DNA of 35,809 nt from a virus. Its lineage: Duplodnaviria; Heunggongvirae; Uroviricota; Caudoviricetes. A program made the translations under genes and the position numbers. Location of the stretch: IMG/VR virus record IMGVR_UViG_2690316210_000007, positions 1-35,809 of that record; one strand, 5' to 3'. Positions 437 to 9,702 of this stretch are shown here, piece by piece; the first letter of the stretch is position 1; each line of letters begins with the position of its first letter. Under the pieces are notes generated by a model that had not been told where the DNA came from, did not search any database, and saw only the letters and a program-made list of their open reading frames with translations.

Positions 437-634
437 ATGCTAAAACAGCAGGATATGACAGAAACCGCCAGAGTAGTGTTTAATGAATTAAGCGTTACCG
501 AACCGGCGACAGTCGGGGAGATTGCACAGAATACTTACCTTTCACGCGAACGCTGCCAGTTAATACTGACCCAGCTGGTTATGGCGGGTCTGGCAGACTA
601 TCAGTTCGGTTGTTACAGACGCCTTCCGCAGTGA
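437..634 (+). CDS. Small hypothetical protein (65 aa), possibly helix-turn-helix
   Basis: ATG at 437 preceded by a purine-rich RBS (aaagggaaaaagac). Translation MLKQQDMTETARVVFNELSVTEPATVGEIAQNTYLSRERCQLILTQLVMAGLADYQFGCYRRLPQ; the segment TVGEIAQNTYLSRERCQLIL looks like an HTH. The ORF-track start at 350 is an upstream extension. Confidence 0.4.
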   Translation: MLKQQDMTETARVVFNELSVTEPATVGEIAQNTYLSRERCQLILTQLVMAGLADYQFGCYRRLPQ

Positions 635-784
635 AGGCTTTTTTATTTGTGGTAAATGGGCGGCTGGTGGGTGTTAGGGGCACCCACCAGCCATCTGCTC
701 ATGCGTTGGGTTCACAAGCAAACCTCAGGCCCACTGCTTTGCGCAAAAGCAGAATGAGCCTATCAGAGACAGGCTTAATGATCC

Positions 785-1834
785 ATGCTTAATACTGTAA
801 AAATATCCAGTTGTGAGTTAATCAACGCCGACTGCCTGGAATTTATCCGGTCGTTACCCGAAAATTCTGTTGACCTGATAGTCACGGACCCGCCGTACTT
901 TAAAGTGAAGCCTGAGGGCTGGGATAACCAGTGGAAGGGCGACGATGATTACCTGAAGTGGCTGGACCAGTGTCTGGCGCAGTTCTGGCGGGTGCTGAAA
1001 CCTGCCGGAAGTCTTTACCTGTTCTGTGGTCATCGCCTGGCATCTGATATCGAAATCATGATGCGTGAACGCTTCAGTGTGCTGAACCATATTATCTGGG
1101 CGAAGCCGTCCGGACGCTGGAACGGATGCAACAAGGAAAGCCTGCGGGCGTATTTCCCCGCCACAGAGCGCATTCTGTTCGCGGAACATTATCAGGGGCC
1201 GTATCGTCCGAAAGATGCCGGGTATGCGGCGAAGGGCAGTGCACTGAAACAGCATGTGATGGCCCCGCTGATTTCTTACTTTCGTGATGCGCGCGCGGCC
1301 CTGGGGATAACGGCAAAACAGATTGCAGATGCCACAGGAAAGAAAAACATGGTGTCGCACTGGTTCAGTGCCAGTCAGTGGCAGCTACCGAATGAAAGCG
1401 ATTATCTGAAATTACAGGCGCTGTTTGCCCGGGTGGCAGAAGAGAAGCATCGGCGTGGTGAACTGGAAAAGCTCCACCACCAGCTGGTGGATACGTATAC
1501 CTCACTGAACCGGCAGTATGCGGAGCTGCTGAGTGAATATAAACATCTGCGGCGGTATTTTGGCGTGACGGTGCAGGTGCCGTATACCGATGTGTGGACG
1601 CATAAACCGGTGCAGTTCTATCCCGGGAAACATCCGTGCGAAAAACCGGCAGAAATGCTGCAGCAGATAATCAGCGCAAGTAGCCGTCCTGGTGATCTGG
1701 TTGCGGATTTTTTCATGGGGTCGGGTTCAACGGTAAAAGCGGCGATGGCACTGGGGCGTCGTGCGATTGGTGTTGAGCTGGAGACCGGACGTTTTGAGCA
1801 GACAGTCAGGGAAGTTCAGGATTTAATCGTTTGA
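785..1834 (+). CDS. DNA amino-methyltransferase (N6-adenine or N4-cytosine), encoded in the late operon
   Basis: 349-aa ORF with DPPY motif IV near the N-terminus (DLIVTDPPYF) and an FxGxG AdoMet motif I near the C-terminus (DLVADFFMGSGST), i.e. beta-class motif order. Confidence 0.85.
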   Translation: MLNTVKISSCELINADCLEFIRSLPENSVDLIVTDPPYFKVKPEGWDNQWKGDDDYLKWLDQCLAQFWRVLKPAGSLYLFCGHRLASDIEIMMRERFSVLNHIIWAKPSGRWNGCNKESLRAYFPATERILFAEHYQGPYRPKDAGYAAKGSALKQHVMAPLISYFRDARAALGITAKQIADATGKKNMVSHWFSASQWQLPNESDYLKLQALFARVAEEKHRRGELEKLHHQLVDTYTSLNRQYAELLSEYKHLRRYFGVTVQVPYTDVWTHKPVQFYPGKHPCEKPAEMLQQIISASSRPGDLVADFFMGSGSTVKAAMALGRRAIGVELETGRFEQTVREVQDLIV

Positions 1835-1883
1835 AACGGATGAGATTGCAGAATTAATTACGCACCATTATTATTCTGCTCCC

Positions 1884-1959
1884 GGCCCTTTAGCTCAGTG
1901 GTGAGAGCGAGCGACTCATAATCGCCAGGTCGCTGGTTCAAATCCAGCAAGGGCCACCA
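1884..1959 (+). tRNA. ileZ: tRNA with CAT anticodon (tRNA-Ile2 lysidine type or tRNA-Met), 76 nt with encoded CCA
   Basis: Cloverleaf read by hand: acceptor GGCCCTT/AAGGGCC, D-stem GCTC/GAGC, anticodon loop CTCATAA (CAT), T-arm GCTGG-TTCAAAT-CCAGC, discriminator A plus CCA. Stx-type lambdoid phages carry ileZ-argN-argO here; the ileZ symbol is by analogy only. Confidence 0.85.
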
Positions 1960-2059
1960 TCACAAACCGCCATTAGCTTATCAGGAAGAGCAGACGACAC
2001 GATAACAGGGTTGTTGGTGCGGGGGCGGGTCCCCGATGGCGGTCCATTATCGGTATTCA

Positions 2060-2136
2060 GCGTTGTTAGCTCAGCCGGACAGAGCAATTGCCTTCTAAGC
2101 AATCGGTCACTGGTTCGAATCCAGTACAACGCGCCA
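2060..2136 (+). tRNA. tRNA-Arg (anticodon TCT), 77 nt with encoded CCA
   Basis: Acceptor GCGTTGT/ACAACGC, D-stem GCTC/GAGC, anticodon stem ATTGC/GCAAT with loop CTTCTAA (TCT), T-arm ACTGG-TTCGAAT-CCAGT, discriminator G plus CCA. Confidence 0.85.
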
Positions 2137-2150
2137 CACTTATTTTCCCT

Positions 2151-2177
2151 GGCTCGCTTTTGCGGGCTTTTTTTTAA
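2151..2177 (+). terminator. Intrinsic terminator downstream of the tRNA genes
   Basis: Hairpin gctcgc-tttt-gcgggc followed by a T8 run. Confidence 0.5.
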
Positions 2178-2181
2178 ATGT

Positions 2182-2398
2182 CTCACAATTCAGGCGGTTG
2201 ACTGTTGTCTGGTTTGCGGGGAGTTTGTTAAAAGAAACTGGCATGGTGAATCCCCCTGTGCGGAGGGGCAATCAGCGAGTAGGTATATGGGATAATCGCG
2301 GATTCAGGTGCTGGTACTGAATTCACCGGGAGGCACCCGGCACCATGCAATGGCACATAGCGCCACTCTCCAGCCCCTCTCCGGAGGGGCTTTTCTGT
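2182..2398 (+). repeat. Copy 1 of a ~220-bp hairpin-rich unit; candidate structured ncRNA/sRNA locus
   Basis: Begins CTCACAATTCAGG..TTGAC; contains gcatggtgaatccccctgtgcggaggggc, caccgggaggcacccggcaccatgc and a terminal hairpin cccctctccggagggg followed by CTTTTCT. The same architecture recurs at 2650-2886. Confidence 0.4.
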
Positions 2399-2585
2399 GC
2401 CGGATACATCACAGTTTCTGGAACCTTAGGTACTACAGTATCAGTCAGGGTGCTATATTTTCAGATGTGATGAAAGCCTGTCAGCAGGCAGGGCGTATCG
2501 GAAATGACCCAGTAGAGAAAACGTTGACTCAGATACCGGTGCTGAGTTACCGGGAAACCGGCATCACATGACCGCTATCCTTCCA

Positions 2586-2612
2586 GGCCCATCCGCTCCG
2601 GTGGGCCTTTTT
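2586..2612 (+). terminator. Intrinsic terminator-like hairpin between the two repeat units
   Basis: ggccca-tccgctccgg-tgggcc followed by TTTTT. Confidence 0.45.
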
Positions 2613-2649
2613 ACTGCAGAAAACAGGTTCCCCGTTAAATGCTATGTTG

Positions 2650-2886
2650 CTCACAATTCAGTAAGTTGACAGTTGCCTGTCAGACTGGGCATTTGTTAAA
2701 AAAATTTCGCATGGTGAATCCCCCTGAGCGGAGGGGCGACTGGTGACGGTATAATCTCTGATTATCAAAACGAGAATGACGCGGGTTTAGTGGCACCGGG
2801 CTGAACTCACCGGGAGGCACCCGGCACCATGTGCATGATGATACAGATACGCGGCTTTAGCCCCTCTCCGGAGGGGTTTTCTTGTG
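2650..2886 (+). repeat. Copy 2 of the hairpin-rich unit; candidate structured ncRNA/sRNA locus
   Basis: Begins CTCACAATTCAG..TTGACA; shares the 5' block (gcatggtgaatccccctgagcggaggggc) and 3' block (tcaccgggaggcacccggcaccatg ... cccctctccggagggg + TTTTCTT) with copy 1, with a different central segment that includes TATAAT. Confidence 0.4.
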
Positions 2887-3111
2887 GGCAAAAAAAGCCC
2901 GCGCTGGGAGACGCGGGCGGCAAGGAATAAACAATAAAACGTGAAGTAATATTTCAGCTGGCGAATAATACCCCATAGTAATCACTCTGCGCAACTGCGC
3001 GGTCTTTTTCGAATTGCGGGCTGTCGTCTCTCTTCTGCCATTGTCCTGTAACTTCCGGACTTCAGCCCGCTCCTTATTTTACTCACAATATTATCCCGGC
3101 CGGGAGGATTC

Positions 3112-4968
3112 ATGGCATTTAAACACTATGACGTGGTCAGGGCGGTATCGCCGTCAGACCTTGCGAAACGACTGACACAAAAACTGAAGGAGGGCTGGCA
3201 GCCGTTTGGTAGTCCGGTGGCCATAACCCCTTATACCCTGATGCAGGCGATTGCAGCAGAAGGTGATGTGGTGGTCAGTGGTGCAACTGAGCCGGATTGG
3301 TACTACGTCATCGTACTGGCCGGGCAGTCCAATGCCATGGCTTACGGTGAAGGGCTTCCGCTGCCGGATTCATACGATGCGCCCCATCCGCGCATTAAGC
3401 AACTGGCCCGTCGTAACACAGTGACTCCCGGTGGTGAAGTATGCGTATTTAACGACATCATTCCTGCTGACCATTGTCTGCATGATGTTCAGGATATGAG
3501 TACGATTAACCATCCCCGGGCTGACCTGAGCAAAGGGCAGTACGGCTGTGTCGGACAGGGCTTACATATTGCCAAAAAACTGCTTCCGTATATCCCTAAT
3601 AACGCGGGGATCCTGCTGGTACCATGCTGTCGTGGTGGTTCGGCATTCACCCAGGGCACGGAGGGGACATTCAGCGAGTCCACGGGGGCCAGTCAGGATT
3701 CGGCTCGCTGGGGAGTGGGTAAGCCGTTATATCAGGATCTGCTTTTCCGCACGAAGGCAGCATTGCAGAAAAACCCGAAAAACGTTTTGCTGGCGATATG
3801 CTGGATGCAGGGGGAATTCGATATGACGAATGCCAGTTACGCCCAGCAGCCAGCAGCATTTCTTGCAATGGTACAGCAGTTCCGTGCTGACCTTGCCGGG
3901 CTGGCGGCGCAGTGTCACGGTGGAAGTCCGGCATCAGTCCCCTGGATTTGTGGCGACACGACATACGCGTGGAAACAAGAACACGGTACGCAATATGAAG
4001 TGGTATATGGTGCATATAAAGGTAAAGAATCCCAGCAGATTTATTTTGTTCCCTTTATGACCGATGGTAGCGGAGTTAATACACCGACAAACAACCCGTC
4101 AGAAGATCCTGATATTGCCGGGTCTGGTTATTACGGTTCGGCATCCCGAACGAACAAAAACTGGGTATCATCAAATCGCCCGACGCATTTCAGCTCATGG
4201 GCGCGTCGTGGCATTATTCCCGATCGTATGGCAACTGCTATTCTGAACGTAGCCGGTCGCACCTTAGCCTTCATTAGTGGTAAGGCACCGGAAATCAAAC
4301 CCTCGCCCGGCGGCGACACTCCATCGGGGCCGTCTGATGGTGACACATCCGTTCGTACAGTCTCCCTGCTGCCGACAGCCGGAGAGGCTGCTGCGCAGGG
4401 CTGGACCATCACCGGCGGCAGTGTTGCGCTGGAAGATGGTGTGTTTAAGGTTACCAAGCAGAGCAATAAAACCTGGTCCCTGATGCATCCGGTGGATGAC
4501 GCAGTCTCCCTGCTGACACGGGGTGGCAGACTGAGCTGTAAGTTTCGACTGTCAGGCGCACTGACCAACAACCAGTTCGGTCTGGGAATTTATCTGTATA
4601 CCGATGTAGCGTTACCTGACGTCGTGGCGATGACCGGGACTGGTAACCCGTTCCTGATGTCGTTCTTCACCCAGACCACAGACGGCAAACTGAATCTGAT
4701 GCATCACAGGAAAGCAGGAAACACAAAGTTGGGCGAGTTCGGGAATTACAGTAACGACTGGCAGACGCTGGAGCTGGTGTTCACCGCCGGCAGTGCCACG
4801 GTTACTCCGAAACTGAATGGAGTGGCTGGCCCGGCATTCCAGGTCATAAAAGACAGTCTGACACTGGGGCTGAATGCGCTGACGCTGACGGATATTACCA
4901 AAAATGCAGCGTATGGCGTTGAGATAGAAAGTCTGGTGCTGGAGATAAATGCACCAGCATCATCATAA
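3112..4968 (+). CDS. nanS-p: Prophage sialate O-acetylesterase (nanS-p-like; SGNH/SASA-type esterase with C-terminal extension)
   Basis: 618-aa ORF with RBS ggagga before ATG 3112. Contains the GQSN esterase motif (VIVLAGQSNAMAYGEG). It sits between the tRNA/stx-equivalent region and the lysis cassette, as nanS-p homologues do in Stx and Stx-like prophages. Confidence 0.7.
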   Translation: MAFKHYDVVRAVSPSDLAKRLTQKLKEGWQPFGSPVAITPYTLMQAIAAEGDVVVSGATEPDWYYVIVLAGQSNAMAYGEGLPLPDSYDAPHPRIKQLARRNTVTPGGEVCVFNDIIPADHCLHDVQDMSTINHPRADLSKGQYGCVGQGLHIAKKLLPYIPNNAGILLVPCCRGGSAFTQGTEGTFSESTGASQDSARWGVGKPLYQDLLFRTKAALQKNPKNVLLAICWMQGEFDMTNASYAQQPAAFLAMVQQFRADLAGLAAQCHGGSPASVPWICGDTTYAWKQEHGTQYEVVYGAYKGKESQQIYFVPFMTDGSGVNTPTNNPSEDPDIAGSGYYGSASRTNKNWVSSNRPTHFSSWARRGIIPDRMATAILNVAGRTLAFISGKAPEIKPSPGGDTPSGPSDGDTSVRTVSLLPTAGEAAAQGWTITGGSVALEDGVFKVTKQSNKTWSLMHPVDDAVSLLTRGGRLSCKFRLSGALTNNQFGLGIYLYTDVALPDVVAMTGTGNPFLMSFFTQTTDGKLNLMHHRKAGNTKLGEFGNYSNDWQTLELVFTAGSATVTPKLNGVAGPAFQVIKDSLTLGLNALTLTDITKNAAYGVEIESLVLEINAPASS

Positions 4969-5708: not shown

Positions 5709-6242
5709 ATGAGCGCAAAAATCAAATACGGCCTGTCAGCTGCTGTTCTGGCGCTGATTGCTGCAGGCGCGTCTGCTCCTCAAATACTTGACCAGTTTCT
5801 GGATGAAAAAGAGGGTAACCACACTACGGCATACCGCGATGGTTCCGGTATATGGACCATCTGTCGTGGTGCCACAATGGTGGATGGTAAGCCCGTCATA
5901 CCGGGAATGAAGCTGTCGAAGGAAAAATGCGACCAGGTTAACGCTATTGAACGTGATAAGGCGCTGGCATGGGTGGAGCGCAATATTAAAGTACCACTGA
6001 CCGAACCACAGAAAGCGGGTATAGCGTCATTATGTCCCTATAACATTGGCCCCGGTAAGTGTTTCCCGTCGACGTTTTATAAGCGGCTGAATGCCGGTGA
6101 TCGTAAGGGCGCATGCGAGGCGATTCGCTGGTGGATAAAAGATGGTGGGCGCGATTGCCGCATACGTTCAAATAACTGCTATGGACAGGTTATTCGTCGT
6201 GACCAGGAAAGCGCATTAGCCTGTTGGGGGATAGATCAGTGA
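5709..6242 (+). CDS. R: SAR endolysin (T4-lysozyme-type muramidase, phage-21 R-like)
   Basis: N-terminal signal-anchor-release segment ([17 protein letters not shown]) followed by a catalytic E...D...T arrangement ([22 protein letters not shown]). Paired with a pinholin upstream, the canonical pinholin/SAR-endolysin system. Confidence 0.85.
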
Positions 6243-6697
6243 GCAGAGTCGCAGCGATTATTTATACTCTGGTTATCTGCACCATCGTCTGCCTGTCATG
6301 GGCTGTTAATCATTACCGCGATAACGCCATTACCTACAAAGCCCAGCGCGACAAAAATGCCAGAGAACTGAAGCTGGCGAACGTGGCAATTACTGACATG
6401 CAGATGCGTCAGCGTGATGTAGCAGAACTCGACGCCAGATACACAAAGGAGCTTGCTGATGCTAACGCGACTATCGAAAGTCTTCGTGCTGATGTTTCTG
6501 CTGGGCGTAAGCGCCTGCAAGTCGCCGCCACCTGTGCAAAGTCAACGACCGGAGCCAGCGGCATGGGCGATGGAGAAAGCCCAGGACTTACAGCAGATGC
6601 TGAACTCAATTATTACCGTCTCCGAAGTGGAATCGACAAGTTAACCGCTCAGGTCAACTACCTGCAGGAGTACATCAGGACGCAGTGCTTAAAATAA
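6239..6697 (+). CDS. Rz: Rz i-spanin
   Basis: GTG start overlapping the R stop (caGTGAgc). [61 protein letters not shown]... is near-identical to recalled lambda Rz ([61 protein letters not shown]...). Confidence 0.85.
6453..6644 (+). CDS. Rz1: Rz1 o-spanin lipoprotein, embedded in the +1 frame of Rz
   Basis: 63-aa ORF inside Rz with lipobox LLGVSAC and a proline-rich mature region ([16 protein letters not shown]), as in lambda Rz1. Confidence 0.75.
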
Positions 6698-6737
6698 TTT
6701 TAATTTCACTGAAATTTAATACGTGACTTTCAGGAAA

Positions 6738-6764
6738 ATGCCTCGCAGATGCGGGGCATTTTTG
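6738..6764 (+). terminator. Intrinsic terminator downstream of Rz/Rz1
   Basis: 9-bp stem atgcctcgc/gcggggcat (one G-U pair), loop agat, followed by TTTTT. Confidence 0.45.
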
Positions 6765-7113
6765 TACAGGTATTTCACCGCGCACCGCAGCGCACTCAAC
6801 CACGTCGAACCAAACCCTTTGGAATGAGCCTTTGAGTAGTCAGTTAGTGCTGGTGAGCCTTGACGGGCTGATCTCCTATGCAGCAAAGGTTCATCTCAAA
6901 GTAAGACGAACGCTATGACAAACCAAGATTCTATAGACCTATCTGATCTTCGTGGAATGGTCATTTTTCCAGACAAAAGGTAATCACCATAGTCGTATGG
7001 CTATGAATCTTGTTGCTGCAGATAAGCATTTTGTGATTGAAGTGGTCAAATCTCTCAAATGCAGTAAAATGCAGTGCGCTATAATTCAATAACGGAGGGA
7101 GTAAGGAGAAGTC

Positions 7114-7734
7114 ATGAAAGATCAAGATGTTAGGTTCGCGGTGCATCATAAGCTTTTGAAAGAATCGCATTTAGATCCAGACTGCCTTGTGGTCGATGAA
7201 TTTTCCATATCCCTTGGCGCCAGTAGAGCAGACATTGCTGTAATAAATGGTGTTATACACGGGTACGAGCTCAAAAGTGAATATGACTCTTTGGAGCGTT
7301 TGCCTCTTCAAATCAAGCATTATTCTTCTGTAATGGACAAGGTTACTCTTGTCGTAGCTGAGAAACACCTTGAGGGAGCATTAAAGTTAATCCCAGGTTG
7401 GTGGGGCGTTAAAACGGTTTCTGTTGGGCCAAAAGGCGCCATTCTTATAAAGCACATGCGTGGAGAAAAGCTTAATCGAAACCATGACACATTGATGCTC
7501 GCTCAATTGCTTTGGAAAGATGAATGTATCGACGTACTTGAACGATGGGGCTATTCCAAAGGAATCAAAAGCAAGCCCCGATTTGAGTTATGGAATATTA
7601 TTGCGGAAAATATTCCAATAGCGAATCTCAGGCCTGAAGTCAGAACAGCCTTAAAGAAACGCGTAGGCTGGAAAGTTAAGGCTTGGCAGGCTGAGTCTGC
7701 GCCAACCAATAAAGCTGTCTCACGACTAACGTAA
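7114..7734 (+). CDS. Hypothetical protein (206 aa) of the AT-rich cargo island; candidate PD-(D/E)xK-type nuclease
   Basis: RBS aaggag 6 nt before ATG 7114; TATAAT at 7080-7085 upstream. Translation shows an ordered E...hhhhD...hhh(E)hK pattern (LLKESHL..CLVVDEF..ADIAVINGVIHGYELKSE). No similarity to lambda late proteins. Visibly lower GC than the flanking phage backbone. Confidence 0.55.
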   Translation: MKDQDVRFAVHHKLLKESHLDPDCLVVDEFSISLGASRADIAVINGVIHGYELKSEYDSLERLPLQIKHYSSVMDKVTLVVAEKHLEGALKLIPGWWGVKTVSVGPKGAILIKHMRGEKLNRNHDTLMLAQLLWKDECIDVLERWGYSKGIKSKPRFELWNIIAENIPIANLRPEVRTALKKRVGWKVKAWQAESAPTNKAVSRLT

Positions 7735-8743
7735 TATGGTGCGTATGTGCAACTTTACGCCATTCTTTAGAGCCGCCAGATTTGTTAGCGCCTAATGATC
7801 TTTGGTAAATGTAATCATCCCCCCAACTAAATTTGGAGCCAAAGACTTGATACTCTGGCGAACTAACAAGGGTAGTACATAAGTTTTTAGTTTGGCCCCA
7901 TCCATTTCCTTTAACTGCGGTACCTTTTACAAAGATCCATGAGGTATCGTTCGAATATCTCACTGAGACATACTGAGACATGAAGCGTGGGTCTACGCTC
8001 GTAATGGTAGAGCTAGCGGTGGGATAATCACTAAAACTTGGCGTTCTTCCATTGCTAAAATTCTGTACTACGTACATCCAAAGATCGTATTCATGGCGCG
8101 GAATATGATGAACTTGATGTTGCGGTATCCCTGCCTGTGATGCCGGGTATGCGGTTGAAGATAAAATCAAGTTTCTCCACGGAGCTTGGCCTGATAATGT
8201 GTTGACCATGCTTAATGCTTGTTGTTTTAAACTATCAGTTGCGTTTTGAATATCTCCAAAATCAATGATTACATCAATTAAACTAGGATGAATATTTAAG
8301 TGGTTAACCAGACTTGTGAATTGGTGCCATGTCTGGGGGGTGATAGATATAGCGAGCCCATTGATTAAGTTGCGTTGAACAGCATGTATATAGTTTGTTG
8401 AATATGCGGGAGAAACAACAGGGATAATTTCCTTACCATTTACTCTAGCATCTTGGATACACATATCTAGAGGATGATGGCGGCTCGAACCATGTTTATC
8501 TAAATATTTAACATCCAGCAAAACAGGACGATTGGCTTTCCAGGATGCCGCAAGGTTAATACCGAAGTCAGATAAGTAAGAACTCAAATTCTTCTTGTAG
8601 CATTCGTTTTCATAATCCCAGTCTATGTCTGGAATGGTAATGATCGGAGTAAAACCAGAGAGCGTAGTTTGATCTAAAAGCATCAGAGATTCATATTCAG
8701 CAGGCTTCCATTTCAGCTGTGGATAATATTGATGTTGACTCAT
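7676..8743 (-). CDS. Hypothetical protein (355 aa) of the AT-rich cargo island, convergent with the 206-aa ORF
   Basis: Minus-strand ORF with RBS AAGGAG 5 nt before its ATG (8741-8743). Alternating short hydrophobic strands (VLLDVKYL, IIPVVSP, GLAISIT, IDVIIDFGDI, NLILSST) suggest an alpha/beta fold. No recognised catalytic motif and no match to lambda proteins. Its 3' end overlaps the 3' end of the + ORF by 59 bp. Confidence 0.55.
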   Translation of the reverse strand: MSQHQYYPQLKWKPAEYESLMLLDQTTLSGFTPIITIPDIDWDYENECYKKNLSSYLSDFGINLAASWKANRPVLLDVKYLDKHGSSRHHPLDMCIQDARVNGKEIIPVVSPAYSTNYIHAVQRNLINGLAISITPQTWHQFTSLVNHLNIHPSLIDVIIDFGDIQNATDSLKQQALSMVNTLSGQAPWRNLILSSTAYPASQAGIPQHQVHHIPRHEYDLWMYVVQNFSNGRTPSFSDYPTASSTITSVDPRFMSQYVSVRYSNDTSWIFVKGTAVKGNGWGQTKNLCTTLVSSPEYQVFGSKFSWGDDYIYQRSLGANKSGGSKEWRKVAHTHHITLVVRQLYWLAQTQPAKP

Positions 8744-8966
8744 TAAAACTCCTTAAAATCTTTACTTATCCTAAGTATAGTGTTATGGCGTAACGCCAAT
8801 TGTTTTTATACACTTGAAAACATTGGGAAAAGTTGAGCTATATCTAAATTTACAAAATTGGATGTTATAGAAATCGAGGTTTCAACTAGGCATGGAACTG
8901 CAAAATTTTTAATGCCTGCACGCGAAAGTCGTTGGCGGGTCCTTTCCGGTGATCCAGATCGTTACG

Positions 8967-8978
8967 GGGCGGCGACCT
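8967..8978 (+). other. cos: cos site: cosN 12-nt cohesive-end sequence (cosB region extends rightwards to roughly 9100)
   Basis: GGGCGGCGACCT followed by CGCGGTTTTTCACTATTTATGAAAATTTT, matching the recalled lambda left end GGGCGGCGACCTCGCGGGTTTTCGCTATTTATGAAAATTTTCC; Nu1 follows about 180 bp downstream. Confidence 0.85.
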
Positions 8979-9153
8979 CGCGGTTTTTCACTATTTATGA
9001 AAATTTTTCAGGGAAAATCGTGTCGGTACTTCTCGAATATAACTTTTTGTTTTTTTTAATATTGCATTCATAAATGTCCGACATGAAAGTGTCCGAAAAT
9101 GCCTTTTTCTGGCGTTTTCATGTCGGGCCTTGTATTTGATAATGGGTTGTTCT

Positions 9154-9702
9154 ATGAAGGTTAATAAAAAGAGGCTTGCCGAAATTTTTAACGTGGACCC
9201 GCGGACGATTGAACGCTGGCAGTCTCAGGGGCTCCCTTGCGTCTCCAAAGGCAGTAAGGGCATTGAATCTGTATTTGATACTGCCATGGCAATTCAGTGG
9301 TATGCGCAGAGGGAAACTGATATCGAAAACGAAAAGCTCCGCAAAGAACTGGCCGATTTGCGTGCGGCAGCGGAGTCAGATTTACAACCCGGCACCATTG
9401 ACTATGAACGCTACCGGCTCACAAAAGCGCAGGCAGATGCGCAGGAACTGAAAAATGCCCGTGAAGACGGAGTGGTGCTGGAAACTGAACTGTTTACCTT
9501 CATTCTGCAACGTGTGGCACAGGAGATTTCGGGGATACTTGTGCGTGTGCCGTTGACATTACAGCGTAAATATCCGGACATTTCACCATCACACCTTGAT
9601 GTGGTGAAAACTGAAATCGCGAAAGCCTCCAATGTTGCAGCTAAGGCCGGTGAAAACGTGGGCGGGTGGATCGATGATTTCAGACGCACAGAAGGCAGCT
9701 AA
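9154..9702 (+). CDS. nu1: Terminase small subunit Nu1
   Basis: [28 protein letters not shown]... versus recalled lambda Nu1 MEVNKKQLADIFGASIRTIQNWQEQGMP...; conserved ..[33 protein letters not shown].. throughout. The ORF-track start at 9130 is a TTG upstream extension. Confidence 0.9.

What the first reader, a model, noticed from the sequence alone, without database searches (positions are those of the whole stretch)
7050..7113. Promoter-like region with a 9-bp tandem direct repeat upstream of the 206-aa gene
AAATGCAGT occurs twice, one base apart (7057-7065 and 7067-7075), immediately upstream of a perfect TATAAT (7080-7085) and the RBS. This could be an operator for a regulator, giving lysogen-state expression independent of Q.
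Basis: seen in the sequence. Interest (0 to 1): 0.35.

Follow-up and report, generated by a model that had tools for sequence, protein, structure and literature searches.

The report
Promoter of a mobile prophage defence-like cassette
The repeat sits inside the conserved promoter of a two-gene, defence-like cassette (relatives of satellite phage P4 cII and beta) inserted next to the cos site of a lambda-like prophage; this is an ordinary prophage accessory-gene ("moron") promoter, and nothing shows that the repeat is a regulator's binding site.

Summary
AAATGCAGT occurs at 7057-7065 and 7067-7075, followed by TATAAT (7080-7085), a ribosome-binding site (7103-7109) and ATG 7114. The repeat alone is not significant: 12% of shuffled windows contain such a repeat.

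The region is nevertheless a real, constrained promoter. Ten independent copies of the same cassette from other genera become alignable only from about 7030. Neutral sites in the adjacent gene are 50% identical, against 85-94% for the promoter hexamers.

The best-conserved pattern is T-R-G-Y-C-A (7043-7048), exactly 16 nt, then TA-N-AAT (7065-7070). I call this sigma-70 promoter P1. It lies inside the repeat.

The two copies diverge independently in relatives (6-9 of 9 identical). No regulator gene is present, and the partner gene's promoter lacks the motif. The operator idea is therefore unsupported, though not excluded.

The cassette is a gop-less version of the P4 beta/cII module. It is AT-rich, replaces rha, lies behind a strong terminator and ends about 40 bp from cosN. 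This is consistent with Q-independent expression in the lysogen, which remains untested. Interest is low to moderate.

The parts
6734..6764 (+). Intrinsic terminator after Rz. It is shared with P22-type phages and insulates the cassette from un-antiterminated upstream transcription.
   Evidence: Hairpin of -20.2 kcal/mol, z = -5.6, 0 of 200 shuffles as stable, followed by a U-run. It lies in the block shared with P22.
6914..6985 (+). Junction with the rha locus. P22 homology ends at the rha ATG (about 6916-6920). A 23-codon remnant ORF follows.
   Evidence: Alignment to the P22 Rz-rha region, P22 annotation and megablast limits.
7030..7042 (+). Left edge of DNA shared between cassette copies (TTTTGTGATTGAAG in subtype a). 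It contains a TGTGA CRP-like half-site at 7032-7036.
   Evidence: Cross-genus alignments. In four lineages this segment is replaced by ATTGCCC-type sequence.
7043..7048 (+). P1 -35-like hexamer TGGTCA (T-R-G-Y-C-A across lineages).
   Evidence: T, G, C and A are invariant in 10 of 10 lineages. Listed by the promoter scan.
7057..7065 (+). Repeat copy 1, AAATGCAGT. It forms the 3' half of the P1 spacer plus the first T of the P1 -10.
   Evidence: Mean pairwise identity is 0.82, against 0.50 at neutral sites and 0.59 in the 5' half of the spacer.
7065..7070 (+). P1 -10 hexamer TAAAAT (TA-N-AAT across lineages), exactly 16 nt after the -35.
   Evidence: Five of six bases are invariant. Only the third base varies (A, C or G). 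Spacing is 16 nt in 10 of 10 lineages. It is top or near-top in the PWM scan.
7067..7075 (+). Repeat copy 2, AAATGCAGT. It comprises the last four bases of the P1 -10 plus five discriminator bases.
   Evidence: Its 7th base is A, T or G in relatives. The GCAGT part has identity 0.72.
7079..7086 (+). P2: consensus -10 TATAAT (7080-7085) preceded by C, giving CTATAATT. It has no -35. It could be a second promoter (sigma-70 or sigma-S type) or a -10-like element at about +4 to +9 of the P1 transcript.
   Evidence: Conservation: A at position 2 is invariant and T at position 6 is kept in 9 of 10 lineages. Variants are TATAAC (Pectobacterium), GATAAT (Providencia) and TATGAT shifted by 5 nt (Proteus). 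The -35 position reads AAATGC, 0 of 6 matches.
7103..7109 (+). Shine-Dalgarno sequence AAGGAGA, 4 nt before the ATG.
   Evidence: Purine-rich equivalents are present in all lineages.
7114..7734 (+). 206-aa gene: sce7726 family, a homologue of P4 cII, with a nuclease-like fold.
   Evidence: NF033832, E = 2.3e-54. PADLOC 'cll', E = 3.8e-31. tblastn to P4 cII at 26.8% identity. Model pLDDT 90.3. Invariant D40, E52 and K54. Weak PD-(D/E)xK-type fold matches.
7676..8743 (-). 355-aa convergent partner gene: Beta_protein family (relative of P4 beta and PD-Lambda-2C). Its 3' end overlaps the 206-aa gene by 59 bp.
   Evidence: PF14350, E = 7e-56. PADLOC PD-Lambda-2_C, E = 6e-32, and beta. The same convergent pair is found in all related loci and in P4.
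8802..8850 (-). Conserved block upstream of beta (its presumed promoter), which also marks the right edge of the shared cassette.
   Evidence: TTAGAT-TAGCTCAA...GTATAAAA is conserved in 9 of 10 lineages. It has no AAATGCAGT-like motif.
8967..8978 (+). Lambda-type cosN cohesive-end sequence GGGCGGCGACCT. The cassette-specific DNA ends about 40 bp upstream, at about 8928.
   Evidence: Sequence read. The identity of the lambda cohesive end is from established knowledge. The right flank is shared with many E. coli prophages.

Best explanation
The 7030-7113 segment is the native promoter and leader of a mobile, convergent two-gene cassette. The genes are a P4 cII-like, nuclease-fold gene on the + strand and a P4 beta-like gene on the - strand. 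The cassette is inserted as a 'moron' between the lysis genes and cos of a lambdoid prophage.

Transcription most likely starts from a sigma-70-type promoter, P1: -35 TGGTCA 7043-7048, a 16-nt spacer, and -10 TAAAAT 7065-7070. The predicted start is near 7076-7078. A second -10 element (P2: CTATAAT 7079-7085, with no -35) lies 15 bp downstream. P2 either acts as a tandem promoter tolerant of a missing -35, or lies in the initially transcribed region of P1.

The 9-bp repeat is not a separate device. Copy 1 is the promoter-proximal half of the P1 spacer. Copy 2 is the P1 -10 plus discriminator. Because the cassette brings its own promoter and sits behind a strong terminator, it can be expressed from the repressed prophage without Q.

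Shown: the sequence elements, their conservation, the cassette boundaries and the gene families. Inferred: promoter activity, which hexamer is used, the start site, and expression in the lysogen.
For: 1. Footprint. Ten independent lineages of the cassette were compared: E. coli, Klebsiella, Edwardsiella, Cronobacter, Pectobacterium, Providencia, Proteus, an assembly labelled Pseudomonas cerasi, and two metagenomic copies. They sit in unrelated contexts and align only from about 7030 onwards.

2. Constraint. Fourfold-degenerate sites of the adjacent gene have mean pairwise identity 0.50, and 7.5% are invariant. The -35 scores 0.85, the P1 -10 scores 0.94 and copy 1 scores 0.82. The 5' half of the spacer scores 0.59, close to neutral.

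3. Promoter-type pattern. The invariant bases are the T, G, C and A of the -35 and TA-AAT of the -10. Only the tolerant third -10 base varies, and spacing is 16 nt in 10 of 10 lineages. The tool's scan lists this pair at 9 of 12 matches, and a PWM scan ranks it top or near-top in every lineage.

4. TATAAT is also conserved. P4 cII has TGCTATAAT 30 nt before its ATG.

5. Moron architecture.
- A terminator follows Rz.
- Cassette GC is 0.38-0.45, against 0.49-0.55 in the flanks.
- The cassette is absent from P22-type relatives, which carry rha at this place.
- It is present in 127 of 5426 complete E. coli genomes at 99% identity or more.

6. Defence-type cargo. P4 gop-beta-cII protects against lambda and P1 (PMC9122126). 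The beta-like PD-lambda-2C is required for defence (PMC9519451).
Against: - No transcription start site or expression data exist for this locus. No paper in the library links strain 55989 with mapped start sites.
- The P1 -35 matches only 4 of 6 bases. P1 versus P2 cannot be decided from sequence.
- In four lineages a third candidate, TTGCCC-17-TACAGT, scores as well or better, so the true start may differ between lineages.
- Copy 1 is more conserved than a promoter spacer needs to be (0.82). A plain-promoter model does not fully explain this.
Confidence: 0.78

Rival explanations
1. Operator model. The two AAATGCAGT copies, one helical turn apart, bind a dimeric or tandem regulator that occludes or activates the core promoter. 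The regulator would be a host factor or one of the two cassette proteins.
For: - The 10-bp phasing puts both copies on one face of the helix, overlapping the core promoter.
- Copy 1 is conserved well above neutral and above the other half of the spacer: 0.82 against 0.50 and 0.59.
- A 6-9 of 9 repeat persists in all lineages.
- TATAAT lacks a -35, as activator-dependent promoters do.
Against: - The repeat alone is expected in 12% of shuffles.
- The copies drift independently. The 7th base of copy 2 is A, T or G. The 5th base of copy 1 is G, A or C.
- The best-kept bases are those of the -10-like hexamers.
- The 1.8-kb cassette has no regulator gene. The 206-aa product models as a nuclease-like fold with no recognised DNA-binding-regulator match.
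- The beta promoter has no copy of the motif.
- No comparable repeat lies upstream of the 55-63% homologues or of P4 cII.
Confidence: 0.12
2. CytR/CRP-type control in the E. coli lineage. The repeat reads AATGCAGT-AA-AATGCAGT, which resembles two direct CytR octamers. A TGTGA half-site lies 20 bp upstream and could bind CRP.
For: - The CytR octamer consensus is AATGCAAC/GTTGCATT.
- Direct repeats with short spacers are bound by CytR, and CytR works with flanking CRP sites (PMC3454398).
- Each window octamer matches 6 of 8 bases.
- TGTGA at 7032-7036 is conserved in six lineages.
Against: - The TGCA core is lost in relatives (TGCTG, TACAG, TACTA).
- Only one half of one CRP site is present. The other half, TGGTC, matches TCACA at 1 of 5 bases.
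- The site centre is at about -37.5 relative to P1 or -52.5 relative to P2, neither a canonical position.
- Four lineages lack the TGTGA segment.
Confidence: 0.04
3. Pause-element model. P1 is the only promoter. The consensus TATAAT at about +4 to +9 recaptures sigma-70 and causes a promoter-proximal pause, as at lambda PR', limiting output of a potentially toxic nuclease-like gene.
For: - Both hexamers are conserved, with a fixed 9-nt gap in 9 of 10 lineages.
- TATAAT has no -35.
- Sigma-70-dependent pausing at -10-like elements in initially transcribed regions is established knowledge (lambda PR', lacUV5).
Against: - The evidence is purely positional, and the P1 start site is only predicted.
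- Proteus has the element shifted by 5 nt, and Pectobacterium has TATAAC.
- P4 and the distant homologues have a TATAAT-type hexamer with no upstream P1 equivalent. This favours TATAAT being a promoter -10.
Confidence: 0.08

Closest known systems
Prophage 'morons' (autonomous promoter-gene units inserted in lambdoid late regions, e.g. lambda bor and lom)
   Same: - Extra DNA that is absent from close relatives at the same place.
- Lower GC than the flanks.
- Preceded by a terminator.
- Carries its own promoter.
- The cargo benefits the lysogen.
   Different: - The unit is a convergent two-gene cassette with a promoter at each end.
- It also circulates outside lambdoid phages, in P4-like satellites, integrative islands and other prophage slots.
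Satellite phage P4 gop-beta-cII anti-phage system
   Same: - Homologous cII (sce7726 family) and beta (PF14350) genes.
- The same convergent orientation.
- The same position next to cos.
- A TATAAT-type hexamer about 30 nt before the cII start codon.
   Different: - No gop gene.
- The cII-like protein is 206 aa, against 264 aa in P4.
- The genes overlap at their 3' ends instead of being separated by a terminator.
- P4 has no P1-type upstream promoter and no direct repeat.
Tandem or overlapping sigma-70 / sigma-S promoters of E. coli
   Same: - Two -10-like hexamers 15 bp apart.
- The downstream one has a C at -13 and lacks a -35, as is tolerated by sigma-S holoenzyme (PMC2759082).
   Different: No start-site or sigma-dependence data exist for this locus.

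Membership tests
Sigma-70-type promoter | A -35 and a -10 hexamer, each matching consensus at 4 of 6 or better, with A at -11 and T at -7, spaced 16-18 nt apart | tested here: met
   TGGTCA-16-TAAAAT, 9 of 12 matches. The same holds in 10 of 10 lineages.
Sigma-70-type promoter | Purifying selection on the hexamers and their spacing, relative to neutral sites | tested here: met
   -35 identity 0.85 and -10 identity 0.94, against 0.50 at fourfold-degenerate sites. Spacing is invariant.
Sigma-70-type promoter | A mapped transcription start downstream of the -10 | not testable with these tools
   No transcript data. Literature search found nothing.
Prophage moron | Insert absent from related phages at the same position | tested here: met
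   P22-type phages have rha at this place. Homology stops at about 6918 and resumes at about 8929.
Prophage moron | Own promoter and flanking terminators; deviant base composition | tested here: met
   Conserved promoter. Upstream terminator. GC 0.38-0.45 against 0.49-0.55. The downstream terminator at 8786-8798 is only a pattern match.
Prophage moron | Expressed in the lysogen | not testable with these tools
   Would need RNA data from a lysogen.
P4 gop-beta-cII defence system | cII homologue | tested here: met
   NF033832, E = 2.3e-54. PADLOC cll, E = 3.8e-31. P4 cII tblastn, E = 5e-12.
P4 gop-beta-cII defence system | beta homologue, convergent with cII | tested here: met
   PF14350, E = 7e-56. 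P4 layout.
P4 gop-beta-cII defence system | gop gene upstream of beta | tested here: not met
   Only about 185 bp lie between the beta start (8743) and flank DNA (8929). No ORF lies on that strand. None is present in related loci either.
P4 gop-beta-cII defence system | Anti-phage activity | not testable with these tools
   Shown only for P4 gop-beta-cII (PMC9122126) and for PD-lambda-2 (PMC9519451).
Direct-repeat operator | Two or more helically phased copies at the promoter | tested here: met
   Two copies with a 10-bp period.
Direct-repeat operator | Copies maintained as a repeat (concerted conservation) in orthologous loci | tested here: inconclusive
   Copy-to-copy identity is 6-9 of 9. 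The differences are independent between copies.
Direct-repeat operator | Cognate DNA-binding regulator, and the motif present at co-regulated promoters | tested here: not met
   No regulator gene. Nuclease-like fold. Motif absent upstream of beta.
CytR/CRP-controlled promoter | CytR octamers flanked by CRP sites, conserved in orthologues | tested here: not met
   6 of 8 per octamer in E. coli only. One CRP half-site. Not conserved.

The most novel reading that the evidence does not exclude
The repeat is an autoregulatory operator bound by the cassette's own cII-like, nuclease-fold protein. That would give P4 'cII', whose function has not been established, a role as a sequence-specific DNA binder that sets the dose of a gop-less beta/cII defence module. 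The excess conservation of copy 1 (0.82 against 0.59 for the rest of the spacer) is the only observation pointing this way.
Probability: 0.07. Interest if true: 0.5.

Novelty: new member of a known kind. Interest (0 to 1): 0.25.

Why it matters
The finding marks where a widespread but uncharacterised two-gene relative of the P4 beta/cII anti-phage module is switched on in E. coli prophages. The cassette is in 127 of 5426 complete E. coli genomes, including the reference enteroaggregative strain 55989.

Knowing the compact 80-bp native promoter makes the cassette easy to clone and test. It also defines the mobile unit (about 7030-8850) as running from one promoter to the other. The promoter itself is ordinary. 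The repeat that drew attention adds little beyond the promoter elements it overlaps.

Tried and rejected
- Chance test of the repeat: not significant on its own.
- Shared operator: I looked for the motif upstream of beta and found none.
- Comparable repeats upstream of the 55-63% homologues and of P4 cII: none.
- Known RNA families in 6600-9200: none.
- Conserved upstream ORF: the 46-aa ORF at 6952-7092 starts in E. coli-specific DNA and is not shared.
- LexA, IHF and DnaA boxes: checked by eye, with no convincing match. This rests on consensus sequences recalled from memory.
- CytR/CRP: consensus verified in PMC3454398. I rejected it as a conserved feature because the core decays in relatives.
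- Sequence search of both proteins against solved structures: nothing significant.
- Fold search of the 206-aa model: only weak nuclease-type matches.
- Ghisotti et al. 1990 on P4 transcription: not held in the library.
- Start-site data for strain 55989: none found.

Full report
**What is there.** The coordinates in the finding are exact.
- AAATGCAGT lies at 7057-7065 and again at 7067-7075, so the period is 10 bp.
- TATAAT lies at 7080-7085, AAGGAGA at 7103-7109, and ATG at 7114.
- The ATG opens a 206-aa ORF (7114-7734).

As a statistical object the repeat is weak. A run of at least 9 matches at offset 10 occurs in 12% of dinucleotide-preserving shuffles of the window. The window contains a second such repeat inside a coding region, at 7962-7981.

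**Context.** The window is the late region of a lambdoid prophage. It contains, in order:
- a class II holin;
- lysozyme (5709-6242);
- Rz (6224-6697);
- the locus in question;
- Nu1 (9130-9702) and the large terminase subunit.

The DNA from about 6919 to 8928 is an insert.
- To its left, the sequence matches the P22-type Rz-terminator-rha region, and the match stops at the rha start codon.
- To its right, it matches the cos/Nu1 region of many E. coli prophages.
- The lambda cohesive-end sequence GGGCGGCGACCT lies at 8967-8978.

The insert is AT-rich, with GC 0.38-0.45 against 0.49-0.55 in the flanks. It follows a strong intrinsic terminator at 6734-6764 (-20.2 kcal/mol, z = -5.6). It is present at 99% identity or more in 127 of 5426 complete E. 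coli genomes, including strain 55989.

**The genes.** The 206-aa product belongs to the sce7726 family (NF033832, E = 2.3e-54). It matches PADLOC's 'cll' model and the cII protein of satellite phage P4.

The convergent 355-aa gene (7676-8743, minus strand) is a Beta_protein (PF14350, E = 7e-56). It is related to P4 beta and to PD-Lambda-2C.

P4 itself has beta and cII convergent, next to cos, with gop upstream of beta. Here there is no gop.

In the literature:
- P4 gop-beta-cII protects against lambda and P1 (PMC9122126).
- It is triggered by a phage accessory gene (bioRxiv 10.1101/2023.04.06.535777).
- The beta-like PD-lambda-2C is needed for defence (PMC9519451).

The AlphaFold model of the 206-aa protein is confident (pLDDT 90.3), apart from a disordered C-terminal tail at residues 189-206. 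Its invariant D40, E52 and K54, together with weak fold matches to splicing endonucleases, Can2/Cdn1, Bax1 and SduA, suggest a PD-(D/E)xK-like nuclease rather than a repressor.

**Phylogenetic footprint.** I collected the same convergent cassette from other genera. The cII-like proteins are 77-85% identical. The contexts are unrelated: prophage tail or lysis regions, restriction-modification islands, and sites next to an integrase. About 20 distinct upstream sequences fall into 10 lineages.

They become alignable only from about 7030-7043. From there they stay alignable through the repeat and TATAAT into the gene. Divergence is high enough for this to be informative. Fourfold-degenerate sites in the gene have mean pairwise identity 0.50, and 7.5% of them are invariant.

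Mean pairwise identity by segment:

| Segment | Window position | Identity |
|---|---|---|
| Fourfold-degenerate sites (neutral) | adjacent gene | 0.50 |
| -35-like hexamer | 7043-7048 | 0.85 |
| 5' half of the spacer | 7049-7056 | 0.59 |
| Repeat copy 1 (3' half of the spacer) | 7057-7064 | 0.82 |
| TAAAAT | 7065-7070 | 0.94 |
| GCAGT of copy 2 | 7071-7075 | 0.72 |

The invariant bases are what a sigma-70 promoter requires:
- T-G-CA of the -35;
- TA-AAT of the -10, with only the tolerant third base varying (A, C or G);
- a spacer of exactly 16 nt in all ten lineages.

The tool's own scan lists this pair. An approximate PWM ranks it first or nearly first everywhere. I call it P1.

A at position 2 is invariant and T at position 6 is kept in 9 of 10 lineages. 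The variants are TATAAC, GATAAT and a 5-nt-shifted TATGAT. P2 has no -35 (AAATGC, 0 of 6 matches) and no TG at -15/-14.

P2 is preceded by a C (CTATAATT). This resembles the sigma-38 -10 consensus CTACACTT, and sigma-38 tolerates missing -35 elements (PMC2759082). P4 cII has TGCTATAAT 30 nt before its ATG. More distant cassettes have GTGCTATAAG or GTGCTATATA.

I therefore cannot say which hexamer is used. Tandem promoters are the simplest reading.

**What the repeat is.** Copy 1 is the promoter-proximal half of the P1 spacer plus the T of the -10. Copy 2 is the AAAT of the -10 plus five discriminator bases.

In relatives the two copies are 6-9 of 9 identical to each other, and they change independently.
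- Copy 1 variants: AAATGCAGT, GAATGCAGT, AAATACAGT, AAATCTAGT, AAATACAAT, AGATGCAGT.
- Copy 2 variants: AAATGCAGT, AAATGCTGT, AAATGCGGT, AAATACTAT, CAATACGTT, GAATGCGGT.

The perfect 9 of 9 is particular to the E. coli lineage. In four lineages copy 1 reads TACAGT and pairs with TTGCCC at 17 nt, a third promoter-like combination. The region is thus a cluster of -10-like hexamers, which goes a long way towards explaining a repeated AAAT...T pattern.

**Operator idea.** In its favour are the helical phasing, the overlap with the core promoter, and the fact that copy 1 is more conserved than a spacer needs to be.

Against it:
- the cassette has no regulator gene;
- the cII-like protein has a nuclease-like fold;
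- the motif is absent from the conserved block upstream of beta (8802-8850);
- the motif is absent from the distant homologues and from P4.

A CytR/CRP reading fits the E. coli sequence: AATGCAGT-AA-AATGCAGT against the octamer AATGCAAC, with TGTGA at 7032-7036 (PMC3454398). It is not conserved, however, and a proper pair of CRP sites is missing.

A third idea is that TATAAT at about +4 to +9 of the P1 transcript is a sigma-70 pause element. This is positional inference only.

**Q-independence.** The architecture is that of a moron: a terminator, its own promoter, foreign base composition, and a cassette that also lives outside lambdoid phages. Expression from the repressed prophage is therefore plausible. 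It was not tested.

This is a new example of a known kind of element. Its interest lies mostly in the cargo, a gop-less beta/cII module next to cos, and not in the repeat.

Noticed in passing
window 7114-8743: The cII-like and beta-like genes are convergent and overlap at their 3' ends. The overlap is 59 bp here (7676-7734) and 11 bp in most relatives, whose cII-like protein is 190 aa. No terminator separates them, unlike in P4. The extra 16 residues of the E. coli protein are predicted to be disordered. Each transcript must run antisense into the other gene.
   Followed up: partly
window 6919-8928; L020, L010, L014, L017, L004: In every prophage context examined, the cII-like gene points the same way as the neighbouring late genes. 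Antiterminated late transcription would therefore be sense for cII-like and antisense for beta. This could switch the balance of the module during the prophage's own lytic growth.
   Followed up: partly
window 8929-8978: The cassette ends about 40 bp before lambda-type cosN (GGGCGGCGACCT, 8967-8978). The P4 gop-beta-cII locus is also adjacent to cos. The two unrelated elements thus carry the same cargo at the equivalent place.
   Followed up: partly
window 7962-7981: A perfect 10-bp tandem duplication, ACTGAGACAT x2, lies inside the beta coding region. On the minus strand it encodes M-S-Q-Y-V-S-V. The ORF has the same length as its homologues, so this is probably chance.
   Followed up: partly
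window 6914-6985: P22-type homology stops at the rha start codon. The ATG now opens a 23-codon ORF (MTNQDSIDLSDLRGMVIFPDKR) of unknown origin. The segment 6919-7029 is specific to the E. coli form of the insert and is not shared with cassette copies in other genera.
   Followed up: partly
window 7029-7050: TTTTGTGATTGAAGTGGTCAAA contains a perfect CRP half-site (TGTGA) and a poor second half. It overlaps the P1 -35. It is conserved in six of ten lineages and replaced by ATTGCCC-type sequence in the other four.
   Followed up: partly
window 8786-8810: A plus-strand terminator-like hairpin, TGGCGTAACGCCA followed by a T-run, lies inside the beta 5' leader. It would stop cII-like or late transcripts after they have crossed the whole beta gene in antisense. 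It is present only in the E. coli lineage.
   Followed up: no
L016, L018, L019 (Dickeya, Enterobacteriaceae): More distant copies of the same gop-less convergent pair sit beside P4-type primase and Ogr/Delta genes, that is, in P4-like satellites. The two-gene form therefore also occupies the P4 hotspot.
   Followed up: no
window about 440-4968 (from L001 annotation): The late operon upstream carries other accessory cargo between Q and the holin. This comprises a TrmB-family regulator, a DNA methyltransferase, three tRNA genes (Ile, Arg, Arg) and a 618-aa DUF6645/SASA-family esterase-like gene.
   Followed up: no
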